Source of the DNA: Candidatus Nomurabacteria bacterium
Lineage (GTDB): Bacteria; Patescibacteriota; Minisyncoccia; Phycocordibacterales; CAIZLB01
Reading direction: 5' to 3'
Assembly (NCBI GenBank): GCA_943356525.1
Contig: CALRFG010000002.1
Coordinates: 27,783 to 91,782 of the forward strand
DNA: 64,000 bases
A model generated the notes under the pieces. The model made no database searches. It was given only the letters and a program-made list of their open reading frames with translations, and was not told where the DNA came from. Each line of letters begins with the position of its first letter. Position 1 is the stretch's first letter. Position numbers and translations under genes: made by a program. Shown piece by piece: positions 3,257 through 22,434 of this stretch.

Positions 3257-3511
3257 TTTGCGTAAGTTTTAGATTTGTTATAATAAAAATGTCCCCGAAC
3301 AACTGACTTAGATATTTCTTTCAGGGAGTTTGTGTAGATTTAAACTTTGGTTTGAATCTTAGAACACCCACCTTAGTTTTTGCTAAGGCTCAGTTCGTTC
3401 GAGGGCTTTAAGAGGGATTGCTTCGTGAGTTTTATGAGTAAGATCATCTGTAGGACGAAGTCCGAGGACTTATGATCGAAACAAAGAAAACGAGCGATCC
3501 TTGCTAAAGCC

Positions 3512-5333: not shown

Positions 5334-6206
5334 ATGAATACAGGTGTAGTCAAAAAAAGAATAGAAGAAATAGAAGGTTTGATGCAAAACCCGGATTTTT
5401 GGAGTGACTCAGTTGCGGCACAAAACATGATGAGGGAATTACAGGATTTAAAAACCGAGTTGATCAAGAATGATTTTTCATCGTTCGACTCTATTATCTC
5501 AATCATTGCTGGTGCAGGAGGAGATGACTCTGAGGATTTTGCTTCCATGTTGTATAATATGTATTTTAAATATGCGACAAATAGGGGTTGGGATATTTCT
5601 ATACTTGATTCAAGTCCAAATACACTTGGGGGCTATAAAAATATAATGTTTGAGGTTAAGGGAAAAAATTCTTATGGTATTTTAAAAAATGAATCAGGGG
5701 TTCATAGACTTGTGAGAATGTCACCGTTTAACTCTAAAGGTTTGAGACACACATCTTTTGCATTGGTGGAAGTTGTACCCAAGATAGATACAAATGTTTC
5801 TTTTGATTTAATAGAATCAGACTTAGATATATCTTTTGCAAAATCAGGAGGAGCTGGAGGGCAAAATGTAAACAAAAGAGAAACAGCTGTTCGTGTGGTG
5901 CATAAACCAACAGGTTTATCAGTACATGTTACGGAGGAAAGGTCTCAAGGGCAAAATAAAGAAAGAGCAATAAACATCATAAAGGCGAAACTACTGAAGA
6001 AAAAAGAAGATGATATGAAGTTGAAGGAAAAAGGTTTGTCGACAACAAACACTGTGAGTATAGAATGGGGAAGTCAGATACGGTCCTATGTTTTGCATCC
6101 ATATAAGATGATAAAGGATCATAGATTTGAGTTTGAGAGTAGTGATGTGGAGGGTTTTTTGAATGGTAATATAGATAATGTTCTGAAAGCTGAAAATGGA
6201 TTGTAG
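5334..6206 (+). CDS. prfB: peptide chain release factor 2 (short form, no programmed frameshift site seen)
   Basis: SPF tripeptide and GGQ motif with canonical 45-aa spacing. Confidence 0.8.
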
Positions 6207-6225: not shown

Positions 6226-6504
6226 TTGTGTTGCAATATGCTATTATATCAATGTATGAAAAGTACCTTAACAGCCCTATCGGGGTTGGTTTTGTTGATT
6301 GTGGCCGCTATTTTAGCGTTTCCTAATCTCCAAGATCAACCGAAAACTTCACAAAAATCTACATCTAGTTTGGTGGTGAAAACCCCACACAAGACGCAGA
6401 TTTTGAAAGAAAAAAAAGAAACAAATGAACCAGAAACAGTGACAGTCCAATTTGGGCTGAATGCTAATTTCAGTCCTAAACCGGGAACTGAAACTGAACA
6501 ATAA
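6226..6504 (+). CDS. small membrane-anchored Lys/Thr/Pro-rich protein (likely starts at internal Met ~6256)
   Basis: one TM helix then low-complexity tail; lies in higher-GC block. Confidence 0.35.
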   Translation: MCCNMLLYQCMKSTLTALSGLVLLIVAAILAFPNLQDQPKTSQKSTSSLVVKTPHKTQILKEKKETNEPETVTVQFGLNANFSPKPGTETEQ

Positions 6505-6531
6505 AACAACTCCCAACAACTACCGAAAATC

Positions 6532-7527
6532 ATGAAAAAATATATCTCCACTATTGTCGCAATGTTCTGCATTGCAAATCTCTGCCTAGCTCAAACGCCT
6601 ATAACTCCAGTCATTATGCCGGATCGTATCTCCATTGGAGAAATCGCCGTCGTTGAGGCTTTAGCTAAAGCGACAACTGTATATGTTGTCTGCGGGTCGG
6701 CATCGACCTTGAGACCGTTTGAGTTTACACAACCTCTTGGTGATGTAGATTCGATAGATGACTTAAAAAAAGTCATTGAAAGGATATATGTAGATTTTGT
6801 TACTATGGATCCAAAAGAGCAAATAAATTTAGCTGTCCGCATCAATGATGTGAATGGAATGAACTTATTTAGGTCTGATACAAGTTTCCAGCTTGAAAAG
6901 GTGCGTGATACACTTAGCAATAAGTTTATTTACCAAACACCATACTACGCTGGGAATCTCTGGTTTAGTTTATGTGATTCAGAAGTACGGGTGCCTGGTG
7001 CTGTTATGGCGCATATGGTAAACCGTAATGGCGACATATATCAACTCAATGTTTTTGATGGGAGAATTCAAATCCCTGGTTGGATGAATCGCTCCGGCGA
7101 ATTTTCCGAGCTCGTGGTTGACAGTGTTCGTTATGATATGAATACTGGTATCAAACTACGTTCTGAAAGGTGTCAACCACAATTTTTAAATGTTGATTTC
7201 AACCAAGTACAAAAGATGGAGTATAGTACTGGTTTAAACAGTATCTACAGTGCTCCGCAGTATGGATATATTCCGAACACTGAAATTAAGCCGACCAACA
7301 GTCAAATGATAATTGAGTTTCAAACTGGGGAATGGAGCTGGGCTTACCCGATTTCTGTTTACATCGCCACATTGGATGATCTCAAGTCAGGAGGAAAAGG
7401 ATGGAAAGTCTACCCTTATTCTACTGGTATGATTATCCCTGTGATTCCAGGAAAAACCTATTATGTTTGGCCTGAATATCAAGATAGCGTGATTGGTTCC
7501 AATGTTGGAACAGGAGGTAAAGGCTAA
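6532..7527 (+). CDS. secreted hypothetical protein (signal peptide), higher GC than surroundings
   Basis: N-terminal MKKYISTIVAMFCIANLCLA signal; 331-aa ORF; no recognisable domain. Confidence 0.6.
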   Translation: MKKYISTIVAMFCIANLCLAQTPITPVIMPDRISIGEIAVVEALAKATTVYVVCGSASTLRPFEFTQPLGDVDSIDDLKKVIERIYVDFVTMDPKEQINLAVRINDVNGMNLFRSDTSFQLEKVRDTLSNKFIYQTPYYAGNLWFSLCDSEVRVPGAVMAHMVNRNGDIYQLNVFDGRIQIPGWMNRSGEFSELVVDSVRYDMNTGIKLRSERCQPQFLNVDFNQVQKMEYSTGLNSIYSAPQYGYIPNTEIKPTNSQMIIEFQTGEWSWAYPISVYIATLDDLKSGGKGWKVYPYSTGMIIPVIPGKTYYVWPEYQDSVIGSNVGTGGKG

Positions 7528-7550
7528 TCTAAATCTCAAAACAATCAACC

Positions 7551-7588
7551 CTCCGGGTGCGTGAAAGCGCATCCGGAGATTTATTTTT
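7551..7588 (+). terminator. rho-independent terminator after 6532..7527
   Basis: CTCCGGGTGCG / CGCATCCGGAG stem followed by ATTTATTTTT. Confidence 0.7.
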
Positions 7589-7639
7589 GTATAAATATAC
7601 ATGGAAAAATATCTCTAAATTTTGGATTCCAGTCAAATG

Positions 7640-7667
7640 TTGACAACTAGGCTTACGAGTGTATTAT
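7640..7667 (+). promoter_or_regulatory. near-consensus sigma70-type promoter (TTGACA-N16-TATTAT)
   Basis: TTGACA 7640-7645, TATTAT 7662-7667. Confidence 0.5.
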
Positions 7668-7674
7668 TAACCCC

Positions 7675-7860
7675 GATGCCTGCCAAGTTCATGGTGGAAA
7701 ATCGTAGGCATTTCGTGCTGTTTATTAGCTTGTATTTAGAACTCAGTTTCCTGATAAGAAACGTGGAGATTATTTTAAAACAGGCCAAAAGCAGTAAATA
7801 CGAGACCTTGTCGACAAACCTGAAAAGGTTAATTGTCGACAAGGTCATTTTTTTATTTAC
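7675..7860 (+). ncRNA. candidate ~185-nt sRNA or cis-regulatory leader (promoter to terminator)
   Basis: bounded by promoter above and the 7803-7860 terminator; internal hairpins; overlapping ORFs judged spurious. Confidence 0.3.
7803..7860 (+). terminator. strong hairpin terminator (14-bp perfect stem containing CCTTGTCGACAA) plus T-run
   Basis: GACCTTGTCGACAA...TTGTCGACAAGGTC then CATTTTTTTATTT. Confidence 0.65.
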
Positions 7861-7927
7861 CTCTTCCAAATCACCATAAAAAATGTTATTTTATATATAT
7901 TAATCAATAATTAAAAAAATAAAAAAT

Positions 7928-8182
7928 ATGTCATTTATAGACACTTTAAAATCATTCTTGGGGTTTACAGTTAGTAAAGAAAATGTAGACGTGGCTACAG
8001 CTCCTATGATGGAAACACCTGTTACTGCTCCAGAACCTTTGACACAAGCTCCTGTTGAAGAGGTTATGGTTCCAGAACCTGTTGCTCATACAATGGAATC
8101 TGATATATCTGCAGAGACTCCTATGGCGGAAACTCCACCTGAGACTGTGACTGAAACAGCTTTGCCAACCGAGAATAAATAA
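7928..8182 (+). CDS. small acidic Pro/Glu/Thr-rich hypothetical protein
   Basis: 84-aa ORF directly upstream of tRNA-Gln; low-complexity. Confidence 0.35.
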   Translation: MSFIDTLKSFLGFTVSKENVDVATAPMMETPVTAPEPLTQAPVEEVMVPEPVAHTMESDISAETPMAETPPETVTETALPTENK

Positions 8183-8188
8183 TTCTCA

Positions 8189-8262
8189 TACCCGATCGTC
8201 TAACGGTAGGACAACGGTTTCTGGAACCGTTAATTGGGGTTCGAGTCCCTGTCGGGTAACCA
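8189..8262 (+). tRNA. tRNA-Gln (anticodon CUG), CCA encoded
   Basis: acceptor TACCCGA/TCGGGTA; D-stem GTCT/GGAC; anticodon stem ACGGT/ACCGT with loop TTCTGGA; T-arm with GGTTCGAGTCC; discriminator A; U1-A72. Confidence 0.8.
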
Positions 8263-8288
8263 ACTTGAGCTAGCACGAGGTGCGCCAT
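8263..8288 (+). repeat. tRNA-Gln trailer core (AACTTGAGCTAGCACGAGGTGCG); prototype of repeat family
   Basis: this exact trailer recurs in 6 downstream intergenic repeats. Confidence 0.7.
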
Positions 8289-8326
8289 TTCTATATTAAT
8301 AAAATCTACTGTATAATTATTTGTAT
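8289..8326 (+). promoter_or_regulatory. conserved promoter/5' module type 1
   Basis: near-identical to 12059-12089; TATAAT 9 nt before ATG. Confidence 0.55.
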
Positions 8327-9862
8327 ATGAAAAATAAACAAAGTGGTTTTGTTGGAATTATTTTAATAATCATCATTCTTGTCTTGATTGGTGGTGGAAC
8401 TTATTTTTATTTCATCAATACTTCTAAAAGTAATTACGAGGAGCAGTTGGCTATCTTAGGTCCCAAAGGAATTTCAAATCTACTTAATCAAAATTCCACA
8501 GGATCATCTGGAATTCAAAAAGAAATATCAAAGAAGATTTTAAATGAGTCTGGTGATATACAAGAGAGAATTGGTCTTGCTCGTATATTAGGTGAATCAA
8601 ACACTGCTGAAGCATTAGAGACACTTTCAAAAGTAATTTTTACAACAAAAAATGAAGAGTTGTATAGAAGTAGTGTGGAACAATTAAGTCGAATGAGTGG
8701 TGCTAGTTCAGAAGAAGAATCTAAGCAAATGACCGATATTGCTATTGCTTCTTATGAAAAGTCGGCACAAAAACCAGAACTATATTATCTGTTTGGAGGG
8801 ATTGTAGCTAAGTTAGGTGAATCTAACGGTGTTAATTTTCTTAGAAATGAAGCAATCAAAGGAGGGTTAACTATTTCATTACTTAATACCAGTAAAAATG
8901 AGTCAGCTAAAGTTTCAATGGAACTATCTAAATCTATTCGTGGAAGATTATCTGTACCAACACTTGCCAATTCTTTACAAATAAATGATCCGAATTCAAC
9001 AGAATTTATTTGGTCTGGACAAGCTTTGTCGTCAATACAATTTCAGGAGGGGGCAGAAGCTCTTTTAAATTGGTCAAAAAACGCACCAGATAATTGCGCT
9101 GAACTAGCTGCGATATGGTTAAGTGGTTTTAGAGACAGTCATTCAATAGATGTAATGCTGGCACTAGATATATCCAATACTCAGTATGTAAGTCAAAAGG
9201 TAAAAAATGAAGTTATGGGTGCTGTTAAAAATTACAAGAAACAATATCAATCATTAATAAACACTCCAGCTCCTGAAAAAATTGATTCAGCAACTCAAAA
9301 GATAAAAATTCTTAAAATGATTGAGGATAAAATACAGAATGATACAATCACAATTGATGATCGTGTTAAATTTCTTGCTGCTTTTACTATTTTAGGCGAT
9401 GAAAAGATAACTAATCAATGGAATATTTTTATAACAAGTCCTGATATGGAAACGGCTAAAAAAAATAAAGATATTTTAATTTATATGTTGTCTGATAAAA
9501 AACAGGTTCCAAAAATTTTAACAATCTCAATTGATCAGGTTAGAAAAAATATTATTGGCAAATGGCAAATGGTGAATGATAATCAATATTTGATTACATA
9601 CATGGGGGATGGAACTTATCAAAATGAAGGAAATAGTTTTAATCATGGTACTTGGAAATTATTAACAAATCTGAAAGAAGAAAAAGATGCTGCGTCTTTT
9701 GAGAGAGAGCTTCCAAATTCAGTGTATTTGAAAATTAATGAATATTCTAATGATAAATATTTGAGCCCAATGTATTACGCTGTTTCTATATCAGATACTG
9801 AAAACTTAAAATATGATTATTTAGGAACCTCAAAGAGTTTTAGTTTTAAGAGAATAAAATAA
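8321..9862 (+). CDS. pilin-like N-terminal (MKNKQSGF + hydrophobic) secreted/membrane protein; true start likely ATG 8327
   Basis: track start is TTG; N-terminus resembles type IV prepilin leader without Glu5. Confidence 0.65.
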   Translation: MYMKNKQSGFVGIILIIIILVLIGGGTYFYFINTSKSNYEEQLAILGPKGISNLLNQNSTGSSGIQKEISKKILNESGDIQERIGLARILGESNTAEALETLSKVIFTTKNEELYRSSVEQLSRMSGASSEEESKQMTDIAIASYEKSAQKPELYYLFGGIVAKLGESNGVNFLRNEAIKGGLTISLLNTSKNESAKVSMELSKSIRGRLSVPTLANSLQINDPNSTEFIWSGQALSSIQFQEGAEALLNWSKNAPDNCAELAAIWLSGFRDSHSIDVMLALDISNTQYVSQKVKNEVMGAVKNYKKQYQSLINTPAPEKIDSATQKIKILKMIEDKIQNDTITIDDRVKFLAAFTILGDEKITNQWNIFITSPDMETAKKNKDILIYMLSDKKQVPKILTISIDQVRKNIIGKWQMVNDNQYLITYMGDGTYQNEGNSFNHGTWKLLTNLKEEKDAASFERELPNSVYLKINEYSNDKYLSPMYYAVSISDTENLKYDYLGTSKSFSFKRIK

Positions 9863-22341: not shown

Positions 22342-22428
22342 GGAGGATTGGATGAGTGGTTGAAATCAACAGTTTACTAAACTGTCGAGCCTTAACGGGT
22401 TCCGTGAGTTCGAATCTCACATCCTCCG
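22342..22428 (+). tRNA. type-II (long variable arm) tRNA, Ser-like (G73), apparent anticodon ACU; CCA not encoded
   Basis: acceptor GGAGGAT/ATCCTCC; 3-bp D-stem; anticodon stem ACAGT/ACTGT with loop TTACTAA; T-arm GTGAG-TTCGAAT-CTCAC. Confidence 0.65.
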
Positions 22429-22434
22429 CAAAGT

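What the first reader, a model, noticed from the sequence alone, without database searches (positions are those of the whole stretch)
7640..7860. Candidate sRNA or riboswitch-like leader between consensus promoter and long terminator
TTGACA-N16-TATTAT (7640-7667) is one of the best sigma70 matches in the window. About 185 nt downstream is a 14-bp perfect-stem hairpin plus T-run (7803-7860). The interval contains further hairpins (e.g. ATGCCT...AGGCAT) and only implausible ORFs. The next gene is a tiny acidic ORF (7928-8182) followed by tRNA-Gln and the cassette array. This could be a stand-alone sRNA, or an attenuator/riboswitch controlling read-through into the tRNA/array region.
Basis: inference. 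Interest (0 to 1): 0.55.

Follow-up and report, generated by a model that had tools for sequence, protein, structure and literature searches.

The report
Small, patchy, fast-evolving RNA gene
This is most likely a small stand-alone RNA gene with its own promoter and terminator, found in only a few close relatives, evolving fast and missing from the nearest relative, so it is not a riboswitch and probably not essential.

Summary
TTGACA-N16-TATTAT lies at 7640-7667. A 14-bp perfect hairpin (7804-7846) with a T-run follows, and the ~190 nt between fold far better than shuffles (z -7.6). Rfam has no match.

The unit is single-copy in a 626-kb CPR-type genome. It belongs to a tiny family. Full units stand at the same place, after homologues of the 331-aa gene, in two of 17 congeners (G011, G013) and one metagenome contig (L075). 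G016 has a remnant. G003, G010, G012 and G043 lack it although the flanks are kept.

The four units share the promoter, a 5' hairpin, the block CAYTTCGTGCTGTTY, CCAAAA and a terminator. The cores differ. G013 and G011 carry a miniature 16S rRNA piece (E 2e-12 and 1.6e-7). The window's core shows no 16S likeness.

A ~96%-identical strain variant changes the RNA body as fast as untranscribed spacer. It hits both promoter hexamers and two family-invariant motifs, but not the terminator.

The riboswitch/attenuator reading is not supported: the small ORF and tRNA-Gln keep their own conserved upstream block with or without the unit. It is not 6S or SRP RNA either. No RNA data exist.

Verdict: a lineage-restricted, dispensable sRNA-like unit of unknown function. 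Interest is modest.

The parts
7551..7578 (+). Context: terminator hairpin (12 pairs) plus T-rich tail of the upstream 331-aa gene (6532-7527)
   Evidence: It is conserved in all homologous loci, including those without the RNA unit.
7640..7667 (+). Sigma-70-type promoter: -35 TTGACA (7640-7645), 16-nt spacer, -10 TATTAT (7662-7667)
   Evidence: 11/12. -35 and -10 (TAnnAT) stand at the same place in 4 of 4 full units. The hexamer match alone is not above chance genome-wide. Both hexamers are changed in the X10 strain variant.
7675..7712 (+). 5' hairpin HP1 (basal stem 7675-7683 with 7704-7712). It starts about 8 nt after the -10, so it would lie at the very 5' end of the RNA (start site inferred).
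   Evidence: Across 4 sequences the 7-bp consensus stem has 26 of 28 cells paired and 3 pairs with changes on both sides. Slid controls pair in 25-57% of cells. Shuffle controls are not significant, 54/500 and 190/500.
7709..7723 (+). Conserved block CATTTCGTGCTGTTT. GCTGTT (7717-7722) is the 5' strand of closing stem P2.
   Evidence: CG, GCTGTT invariant in 4 of 4. P2 pairing probability is 0.88-1.0 in the window's RNA and 0.63-0.80 in G013. P2 is not the preferred pairing in L075 or G011.
7723..7784 (+). Variable core (62 nt), predicted as one long imperfect hairpin
   Evidence: It shows no similarity above shuffles to the 118-189-nt cores of L075, G013 and G011 and no SSU rRNA likeness. Three of the four stem-breaking changes in the X10 variant fall here, and the fourth falls in the GCTGTT block.
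7785..7795 (+). CCAAAA (7785-7790, invariant in 5 of 5 sequences) and the 3' strand of P2, AAGCAGT (7789-7795)
7804..7858 (+). Intrinsic terminator: 14-bp perfect stem (7804-7817 with 7833-7846), inner 4-bp helix with GAAA loop, T7 at 7848-7854
   Evidence: Across G000, G011 and G016 it has 17 predicted pairs, 5 with changes on both sides, and 1 of 51 cells broken. The X10 variant has 0 changes in 58 nt.
7859..7927 (+). Context, not part of the unit: conserved upstream block of the small acidic ORF
   Evidence: 77-88% identity in 8 loci of congeners, with or without the RNA unit.
7928..8262 (+). Context: small acidic ORF (7928-8182, 84 aa) and tRNA-Gln(CUG) (8189-8262)
   Evidence: The ORF-plus-tRNA pair is conserved in the genus. 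Pfam finds nothing in the ORF.

Best explanation
The interval is a stand-alone small transcription unit on the + strand. A sigma-70-type promoter at 7640-7667 would start an RNA near 7675. The RNA folds into a 5' hairpin, then a closing stem (GCUGUU with AAGCAG) around a 62-nt core hairpin. It ends at a very strong intrinsic terminator (7804-7858), giving an RNA of about 180 nt.

The unit is one of four known full copies of a small, genus-restricted, fast-evolving family. The family sits after homologues of one hypervariable secreted-protein gene. In G013 and G011 the core is a miniature piece of 16S rRNA. The window's copy is a short version without that module.

The unit is dispensable: it is absent or reduced to a remnant in other congeners. 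In this lineage its body is under little or no constraint. Only the terminator is clearly kept, and it probably also shields the downstream small-ORF/tRNA-Gln unit from read-through.

Shown: the anatomy, the homology, the distribution and the rates. Inferred: that it is transcribed, its ends, and that it acts, if at all, as a non-coding RNA. Its target is unknown.
For: Anatomy and fold.

Copy number and known families. The unit is single-copy in the genome. No Rfam family matches.

Homologous units. They have the same order of parts: upstream-gene terminator, TTGACA-N16-TAnnAT, 5' hairpin, CAYTTCGTGCTGTTY, core, CCAAAA, terminator. They occur in G011, G013 and metagenome contig L075.

Reach of the family.
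- A covariance model of the 5' block finds only G000, G011 and G013 among 50 family genomes (62-67 bits, E <= 2.5e-13). The next best hit has E 0.038, and the 8 weak hits show none of the other parts.
- An exact-pattern scan of 185,579 species genomes returns only two loci, identical to the G011 and G013 units.
- The same scan returns none in viral contigs.

Structure kept. HP1 has 26 of 28 cells paired and 3 compensatory pairs. The terminator has 5 compensatory pairs of 17. The 6 G-U cells in HP1 and 5 in the terminator work only on the + strand.

Not a leader. Independent conserved upstream blocks and intervening genes are seen in relatives.

Dispensable. Among the 9 loci that carry the upstream gene (8 of 50 family genomes, plus L075), 4 have a full unit, 1 has a remnant and 4 have none.
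Against: There is no expression evidence: none of the 20 listed runs that hold the sequence is RNA.

The promoter match alone is at chance level for this AT-rich genome.

With only 4 sequences, covariation in HP1 is not distinguishable from shuffles (54/500 and 190/500).

P2 is the preferred pairing in only 2 of 4 members.

The strain variant in run X10 is one 683-nt contig at depth 5. It has 8 changes in the 135-nt RNA body (5.9%), against 5.0% in the untranscribed spacer and 1.9% in the upstream gene. Four of the 8 break predicted pairs, and none is compensated. The changes include TTGACA to TTGAAA, TATTAT to TATTGT, GCTGTT to GCTATT and CCAAAA to CAAAAA. This pattern looks like decay rather than a maintained RNA.

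The nearest relative at this locus (G003) has lost the whole unit.
Confidence: 0.55

Rival explanations
1. Dead relic. The unit is the decaying remnant of a once larger element, a 16S-rRNA-derived small gene or rRNA gene fragment. The body has no function in this genome. Only the hairpin survives selection, as a terminator or insulator between the 331-aa gene and the small-ORF/tRNA-Gln unit.
For: The X10 variant changes the body at the spacer's rate. It hits both promoter hexamers and two family-invariant motifs, while the terminator (0 of 58 nt) and the next 67 nt (1 change) are kept. The locus shows a graded series of loss: G013 has a 112-nt 16S-like core, G011 has 47 nt of it, L075 has no helix 11, G000 has no 16S-like core, G016 has lost the -10 and the 5' hairpin, and G003 has lost everything.
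Against: Promoter, HP1, the 15-nt block and CCAAAA are still alignable among four loci whose neighbouring protein is only 33-40% identical. The window's copy keeps an 11/12 promoter and a fold with z -7.6. The variant is a single contig at depth 5.
Confidence: 0.25
2. Leaderless mRNA for a small peptide. The start codon lies 8 nt after the -10, and the conserved 15-nt block encodes H-F-V-L-F.
For: In 4 of 4 units an ATG or GTG stands 8 nt after the -10. The distance from it to the conserved block is a multiple of three (36, 36, 39 and 39 nt). The frame reads HFVLF in 3 of 4 units and HHELF in G011. Differences inside the block among G000, L075, G013 and the X10 variant are all third-position and silent (CAT/CAC, TTT/TTC, GTG/GTA). 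In relatives the neighbouring ~100-aa ORF has TATAAT 6 nt before its ATG, so leaderless starts seem to be used.
Against: Peptide lengths are 68, 32, 27 and 17 aa, and nothing is conserved outside the 5 residues. A second frame is equally open over the same stretch in all four, so openness means little. The start codon is buried in HP1, whose pairs are kept through amino-acid-changing substitutions. In the window the frame runs through the terminator to a stop at 7877-7879, beyond the expected RNA end. In the variant 3 changes are silent and 5 are not, which does not differ from neutral.
Confidence: 0.1
3. Riboswitch or attenuator leader that controls read-through into the small ORF, tRNA-Gln and the genes beyond.
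For: The position is upstream of, and on the same strand as, the small ORF. The RNA is structured and followed by a terminator.
Against: No aptamer family matches. The terminator is formed in both the MFE and the centroid structure. The small ORF has its own conserved upstream block and exists without the unit in G003, G008 and G015. In G011, L075 and G016 an ORF with its own -10 lies between, and in G013 a 221-aa ORF lies between. The core, where a ligand pocket would be, is the least conserved part.
Confidence: 0.04
4. A divergent housekeeping RNA (6S RNA or SRP RNA) that Rfam models miss.
For: Neither 6S nor SRP RNA is found in this genome by Rfam models. The length of about 180 nt is right for 6S.
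Against: The unit occurs in only 3 of 18 genomes of the genus. A different, genus-conserved 6S-like locus lies at window 3273-3437. The Ffh M domain is found in 0 of 18 genus genomes, and no SRP-type GTPase passes the cut-off in G000, so no SRP RNA is expected. The fold has no 5'-3' closing rod.
Confidence: 0.01

Closest known systems
Bacterial trans-acting small RNA genes (own promoter, 5' hairpin, Rho-independent terminator)
   Same: Promoter-to-terminator unit of about 180 nt in an intergenic region. It is non-coding by every test and restricted to a narrow lineage, as many sRNAs are.
   Different: No expression data, no seed region conserved in single-stranded form, and no known chaperone or target. 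Its body evolves at the spacer's rate in a strain variant.
rRNA mimics in ribosomal-protein leaders, and rRNA gene fragments (applies to the relatives' copies)
   Same: The cores in G013 and G011 match the bacterial SSU rRNA model: positions 107-310 with the middle 97 positions deleted (46.6 bits, E 2e-12), and positions 237-283 (31.5 bits, E 1.6e-7). They are 37/43 and 38/42 identical to helix 11 of the window genome's own 16S rRNA.
   Different: They are stand-alone units, not 5' leaders of r-protein genes. They score below the family's gathering score of 50 bits. The window's own copy has no such module. Which protein binds this part of 16S rRNA is recalled textbook knowledge (uS17, bS20, bS16), not tested here.
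Transcription-attenuating riboswitches and leaders
   Same: Structured RNA followed by an intrinsic terminator, on the same strand as the next gene.
   Different: No conserved aptamer, and the link to the downstream gene is not kept in relatives.
6S RNA (RF00013)
   Same: Similar length. 6S is otherwise undetected at Rfam's threshold in this genome.
   Different: No rod-like fold with a central bubble and no genus-wide conservation. A separate 6S-like locus exists at window 3273-3437.

Membership tests
Riboswitch / attenuator leader | Conserved ligand- or factor-binding aptamer (match to a curated model) | tested here: not met
   No Rfam family matches at the gathering score in the window. In 7450-8350 at E<=10 only the tRNA and chance-level hits appear, the best in the interval at E 1.9.
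Riboswitch / attenuator leader | Sits directly in the 5' leader of the regulated gene, and this link is kept in relatives | tested here: not met
   Other ORFs lie between the unit and the small ORF in G011, L075, G016 and G013. The small ORF and tRNA exist without the unit in G003, G008 and G015.
Riboswitch / attenuator leader | Mutually exclusive terminator and antiterminator folds | tested here: inconclusive
   The terminator is formed in both the MFE and the centroid structure. I made no dedicated search for an alternative pairing.
Intrinsic (Rho-independent) terminator | G+C-containing stem-loop followed at once by a T-run | tested here: met
   14-bp perfect stem (7 G/C pairs) followed by A then T7. 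It is one of 6 such hairpins in the genome. The pairs are kept with 5 compensatory changes.
Sigma-70-type promoter | -35 and -10 hexamers at 16-18 nt spacing, conserved in homologues | tested here: met
   11/12 match. TTGACA-N16-TAnnAT stands at the same place in 4 of 4 full units. Caveats: the match alone is at chance level genome-wide, and both hexamers are changed in the X10 variant. Activity was not tested.
6S RNA (RF00013) | Match to the model, rod-like fold with a central bubble, conservation across the lineage | tested here: not met
   A separate 6S-like locus lies at window 3273-3437.
SRP RNA (RF00169 / RF01854) | Match to the model, and presence of the Ffh partner | tested here: not met
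   own genome; 0 of 18 genomes; Ffh M domain in 0 of 18; no SRP54-type GTPase above the cut-off in G000.
SSU rRNA-derived fragment | Match to the bacterial SSU rRNA model | tested here: not met
   The window's copy has no SSU hit at E<=10, and its core is unlike the relatives' cores. The relatives' copies match below the gathering score: G013 at 46.6 bits and G011 at 31.5 bits, against 50.
Protein-coding gene | Open frame kept, with mostly silent changes between strains | tested here: not met
   For the 85-aa + ORF, 11 of the 16 applied changes alter the protein or the stop. For the 78-aa - ORF, 8 residues change. The short leaderless frame remains a weak rival.

The most novel reading that the evidence does not exclude
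The family is a genuine class of small RNAs built from a miniaturised 16S rRNA 5'-subdomain. A helix-5-like closing stem encloses reduced helices 6, 7, 11 and 12, transcribed from its own promoter. It would act as a decoy or sponge for a 5'-domain ribosomal protein or assembly factor in these very small-genome bacteria. The window's core-less copy would then be either a second functional form that keeps only the conserved frame, or a recent loss-of-function allele.
Probability: 0.1. Interest if true: 0.6.

Novelty: new member of a known kind. Interest (0 to 1): 0.3.

Why it matters
Almost nothing is known about small RNAs in CPR/Patescibacteria-type bacteria with 0.6-Mb genomes. A promoter-to-terminator unit with homologues gives one concrete candidate to look for in lake metatranscriptomes.

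The relatives' copies show that a piece of 16S rRNA can end up inside an independent small transcription unit. That is either a rare origin for an sRNA or a clear example of step-wise decay.

For this window the practical result is mostly negative. It is not a riboswitch and not a housekeeping RNA. It is not needed by the nearest relative, and it is probably under weak constraint.

Tried and rejected
1. Rfam at gathering score on the whole window and at E<=10 on 7450-8350: only tRNAs.

2. BLAST of the unit against 40 relatives: nothing better than a 46-nt match at E 9.3e-4. Homologues were found only through synteny.

3. MAFFT of the full-length units misplaced the window's short copy. I therefore aligned the 5' and 3' blocks separately. 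No full-length covariance model was built. P2 could not be counted on a tool-made alignment, so it rests on complementarity read by eye and on pairing probabilities.

4. 6S and SRP RNA readings: rejected.

5. Long ORFs across the interval: rejected.

6. Repeat or mobile element: the unit is single-copy. No duplicated target site was seen when the G000 and G003 junctions were read by eye. No hit in viral contigs. Not pursued further.

7. Specific deletion junction between the window's core and the G011 core: suggested by eye, but the local alignment is not above shuffles (107 of 300 shuffles as good). Dropped.

8. Homology of HP1 and the conserved block to the 5' end of 16S rRNA: suggestive by eye only. 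BLAST against the genome's own 16S gene with 400 nt upstream gave nothing for the window's copy. Not claimed.

9. Expression: no RNA holder is listed among the 20 runs. This says nothing about expression.

10. Contigs of runs X6 and X8 leave parts of 7603-7803 uncovered. A hole in contigs proves nothing and is not used.

11. Table 3 leaves 5 differences unlisted. Record 2 has 28 differences, of which I could place 26, so the rates are slight underestimates.

12. The metagenome scan with the upstream protein gave 1 locus.

13. The two extra hits (G055, G064) match only the 16S-like segment and were not examined.

15. Literature. Three searches gave no paper on such an RNA among the 29 rows listed. 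Searches listed only 10 of 44 and 10 of 26,969 papers, so they are weak evidence that nothing is in print. I read only one passage of PMC8080830. Supplements were not opened.

Full report
WHAT IS THERE. The window is part of contig C2 of a 626,383-bp genome in 8 contigs, 92% complete. Three things point to a CPR/Patescibacteria-type bacterium: the genome size, the missing SRP system (see 'What it is not'), and the submitters' titles of two congeneric records.

Between the terminator of a 331-aa gene (hairpin 7551-7578) and a small acidic ORF (7928-8182) followed by tRNA-Gln(CUG) (8189-8262) lie, in order:
- TTGACA-N16-TATTAT at 7640-7667, an 11/12 match and the best of 17 sites in 6500-9500;
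- a 5' hairpin, 7675-7683 paired with 7704-7712;
- a second long imperfect hairpin closed by GCUGUU (7717-7722) with AAGCAG(U) (7789-7795);
- an 18-pair hairpin with a perfect 14-bp outer stem (7804-7817 with 7833-7846) and a GAAA loop, followed by T7 (7848-7854).

The + strand of 7668-7860 folds at -67.4 kcal/mol. Shuffles give -37.5 +/- 3.9, so z is -7.63 and 0 of 200 shuffles fold as well. The minus strand gives z -4.94.

IS IT MORE THAN CHANCE?
- The hairpin is. Only 6 hairpins in the genome have a perfect stem of >=12 bp, >=4 G/C and a T-rich tail.
- The promoter match alone is not. The genome has 52 sites with >=11/12, and five simulated genomes of the same dinucleotide make-up had 40-52. 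Its weight comes from conservation, described below.

WHAT IT IS NOT.
- Known RNA families. Rfam 15 gives no match.
- Repeat. The unit is single-copy.
- Long ORFs. The 85-aa and 78-aa ORFs across it are not coding. In a strain variant most changes alter the protein, and one makes a stop.
- SRP RNA. RF00169 finds nothing in 18 of 18 genomes of the genus. The Ffh M domain is found in 0 of 18. No SRP54-type GTPase passes the cut-off in G000. Loss of SRP subunits in many CPR bacteria is stated in a passage of PMC8080830 (passage only).
- 6S RNA. Four congeners have sub-threshold 6S hits (22.5-25.5 bits). The G012 hit matches window 3273-3437 at 80% over 171 nt. That stretch has a closing stem around small hairpins. 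So the 6S-like role, if any, belongs to another locus.

RELATIVES. Direct DNA search found nothing, so I used synteny through tRNA-Gln and through the 331-aa protein (8 of 50 family genomes; one metagenome contig, L075). Among these 9 loci the outcome is as follows.
- Full units stand in G000, G011, G013 and L075.
- G016 keeps the -35, about 45 nt, CCAAAA and the terminator, but has lost the -10 and the 5' hairpin.
- G003, G010, G012 and G043 have no unit.
- In G003, the nearest relative at this locus (76% protein identity), 37 nt replace about 300 nt. The two flanks stay alignable.

The four full units share these parts:
- TTGACA-N16-TAnnAT-TAA;
- a start-proximal hairpin;
- the block CAYTTCGTGCTGTTY (G011: CATCACGAGCTGTTC);
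- a core of 62-189 nt;
- CCAAAA;
- a strand complementary to GCUGUU;
- an A-rich linker;
- a terminator.

A covariance model of the 5' block (R1) scores 62-67 bits in G000, G011 and G013. It finds nothing credible in the other 47 family genomes: the best other hit has E 0.038, and the 8 weak hits show none of the other parts. An exact-pattern scan of one genome per 185,579 species returned two loci that are identical to the G011 and G013 units. The viral collection returned none.

STRUCTURE CONSERVATION.
- HP1: 7 consensus pairs, 26 of 28 cells paired, and 3 pairs with changes on both sides. Sliding the partner drops pairing to 25-57% of cells. Column shuffles reach the observed values often (54/500 and 190/500), so with four sequences this is support, not proof.
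- Terminator (G000, G011, G016): 17 pairs, 5 with changes on both sides, and 1 of 51 cells broken.
- Strand: the G-U cells (6 in HP1, 5 in the terminator) would be A-C mismatches on the other strand, so the + strand is the RNA strand.
- P2: the complementary strand is present in all four, read by eye. It is the preferred pairing only in G000 (p 0.88-1.0) and G013 (p 0.63-0.80).

THE CORES.
- G013's core matches the bacterial SSU rRNA model from position 107 to 310, with the middle 97 positions deleted. That covers the base of helix 7, helix 11 and helix 12. The score is 46.6 bits, E 2e-12, against a gathering score of 50.
- G011's core matches positions 237-283 (helix 11) at 31.5 bits, E 1.6e-7.
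- The two are 37/43 and 38/42 identical to helix 11 of G000's own 16S rRNA.
- Outside helix 11 they differ clearly from the genus's 16S genes. Those genes are nearly identical to one another over the first 380 nt in G000, G003 and G016.
- L075 keeps the flanks but not helix 11.
- The window's 62-nt core shows no similarity above shuffles to any of the others and no SSU hit.

So the family looks like a small unit that once enclosed a miniature 16S 5'-subdomain and has been shortened to different degrees. The window's copy has only the frame.

WITHIN-SPECIES VARIATION. Contigs of four lake-water DNA runs were laid on 7000-9000. One 683-nt contig of run X10 (depth 5) spans 7590-8260 with 28 differences. 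The placed differences fall as follows:

| Region | Changes | Length (nt) | Rate |
|---|---|---|---|
| Upstream gene | 10 | 528 | 1.9% |
| Spacer plus promoter | 7 | 140 | 5.0% |
| RNA body | 8 | 135 | 5.9% |
| Terminator | 0 | 58 | 0% |
| Next stretch | 1 | 67 | 1.5% |
| Small ORF | 10 | 255 | 3.9% |

- The changes turn TTGACA into TTGAAA, TATTAT into TATTGT, GCTGTT into GCTATT and CCAAAA into CAAAAA.
- Of the 8 changes in the body, 1 keeps a pair as a wobble, 3 are unpaired and 4 break predicted pairs. None is compensated.
- The reference structure loses about 12 kcal/mol on the variant.

This is one low-depth contig, but it argues that in this lineage only the terminator is clearly under selection.

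LEADER OR STAND-ALONE? The block 7859-7951, just upstream of and into the small ORF, is 77-88% identical in 8 loci, with or without the unit. In G011, L075 and G016 a ~96-100-aa ORF lies between the unit and the small ORF, with TATAAT 6 nt before its ATG. In G013 a 221-aa ORF lies there, at a larger distance. The terminator is formed in both the MFE and the centroid structure. The leader reading is therefore unlikely.

A SMALL ORF? In all four units an ATG or GTG lies 8 nt after the -10, in frame with the conserved block. The block then reads HFVLF in 3 of 4 units. Differences within the block among G000, L075, G013 and the variant are silent.

Against this:
- the peptides are 68, 32, 27 and 17 aa and share nothing else;
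- another frame is equally open;
- the start codon is buried in HP1, whose pairing is kept by amino-acid-changing substitutions;
- in the window the frame runs through the terminator.

I keep it as a 10% rival.

VERDICT. The unit is a new, very small family of a known kind: an sRNA-like gene with its own promoter and terminator. It is dispensable in close relatives and probably weakly constrained here, and its function is unknown. The most interesting aspect lies in the relatives' copies, with their miniature 16S module, not in the window's copy.

Noticed in passing
Whole genome G000 and its genus (not a window coordinate): The SRP system appears to be missing. SRP RNA is found in 0 of 18 genomes and the Ffh M domain in 0 of 18. 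In G000 the only SRP54-type GTPase hit is sub-threshold (17.7 bits, C1:150533-150931), so neither Ffh nor FtsY was detected. Controls ring in 13-14 of 14 genomes. A passage of PMC8080830 says SRP subunits are absent from many CPR bacteria, so this is probably known.
   Followed up: partly
window 3273-3437 (+), with a TATAAT-like box just upstream: A 6S-like small RNA candidate. It is 80% identical over 171 nt to a sub-threshold 6S hit (22.5 bits) in congener G012, and similar hits occur in G002, G006 and G007. It folds with a long closing stem around small hairpins (z -3.5). It does not itself reach E<=1 with the Rfam 6S model.
   Followed up: partly
L062 1482-1593 (- strand; G013) and L035 644-690 (G011): The homologous small units of two congeners contain a miniature 16S rRNA piece: SSU model positions 107-310 with 97 positions deleted (46.6 bits), and positions 237-283 (31.5 bits). 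Neither genome has an assembled 16S gene at E<=1e-5.
   Followed up: partly
window 22342-22429 (+): A class-II tRNA that ARAGORN calls tRNA-Ser with anticodon ACU. The loop reads TTACTAA. An unmodified A at the wobble position is unusual for a bacterial tRNA-Ser (recalled knowledge).
   Followed up: no
window 6532-7527 and its homologues (L068-L075): The upstream 331-aa protein has no Pfam family. It is found in only 8 of 50 family genomes. It is only 33-40% identical among congeners other than G003 (76%), although the three congeners with an assembled 16S gene (G000, G003, G016) are nearly identical over its first 380 nt. This looks like a hypervariable protein at a hypervariable locus.
   Followed up: partly
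L075 1030-1046, L035 about 870-886, and L032/L037 equivalents: In relatives a ~96-100-aa ORF of no known family, missing from the window, has TATAAT 6 nt before its ATG. This suggests leaderless mRNAs in this genus.
   Followed up: no
window 5334-6206: The RF2-type release factor is short (290 aa). Its PCRF domain matches only from profile position 86 onward. I did not check whether the N-terminal part is really reduced.
   Followed up: no
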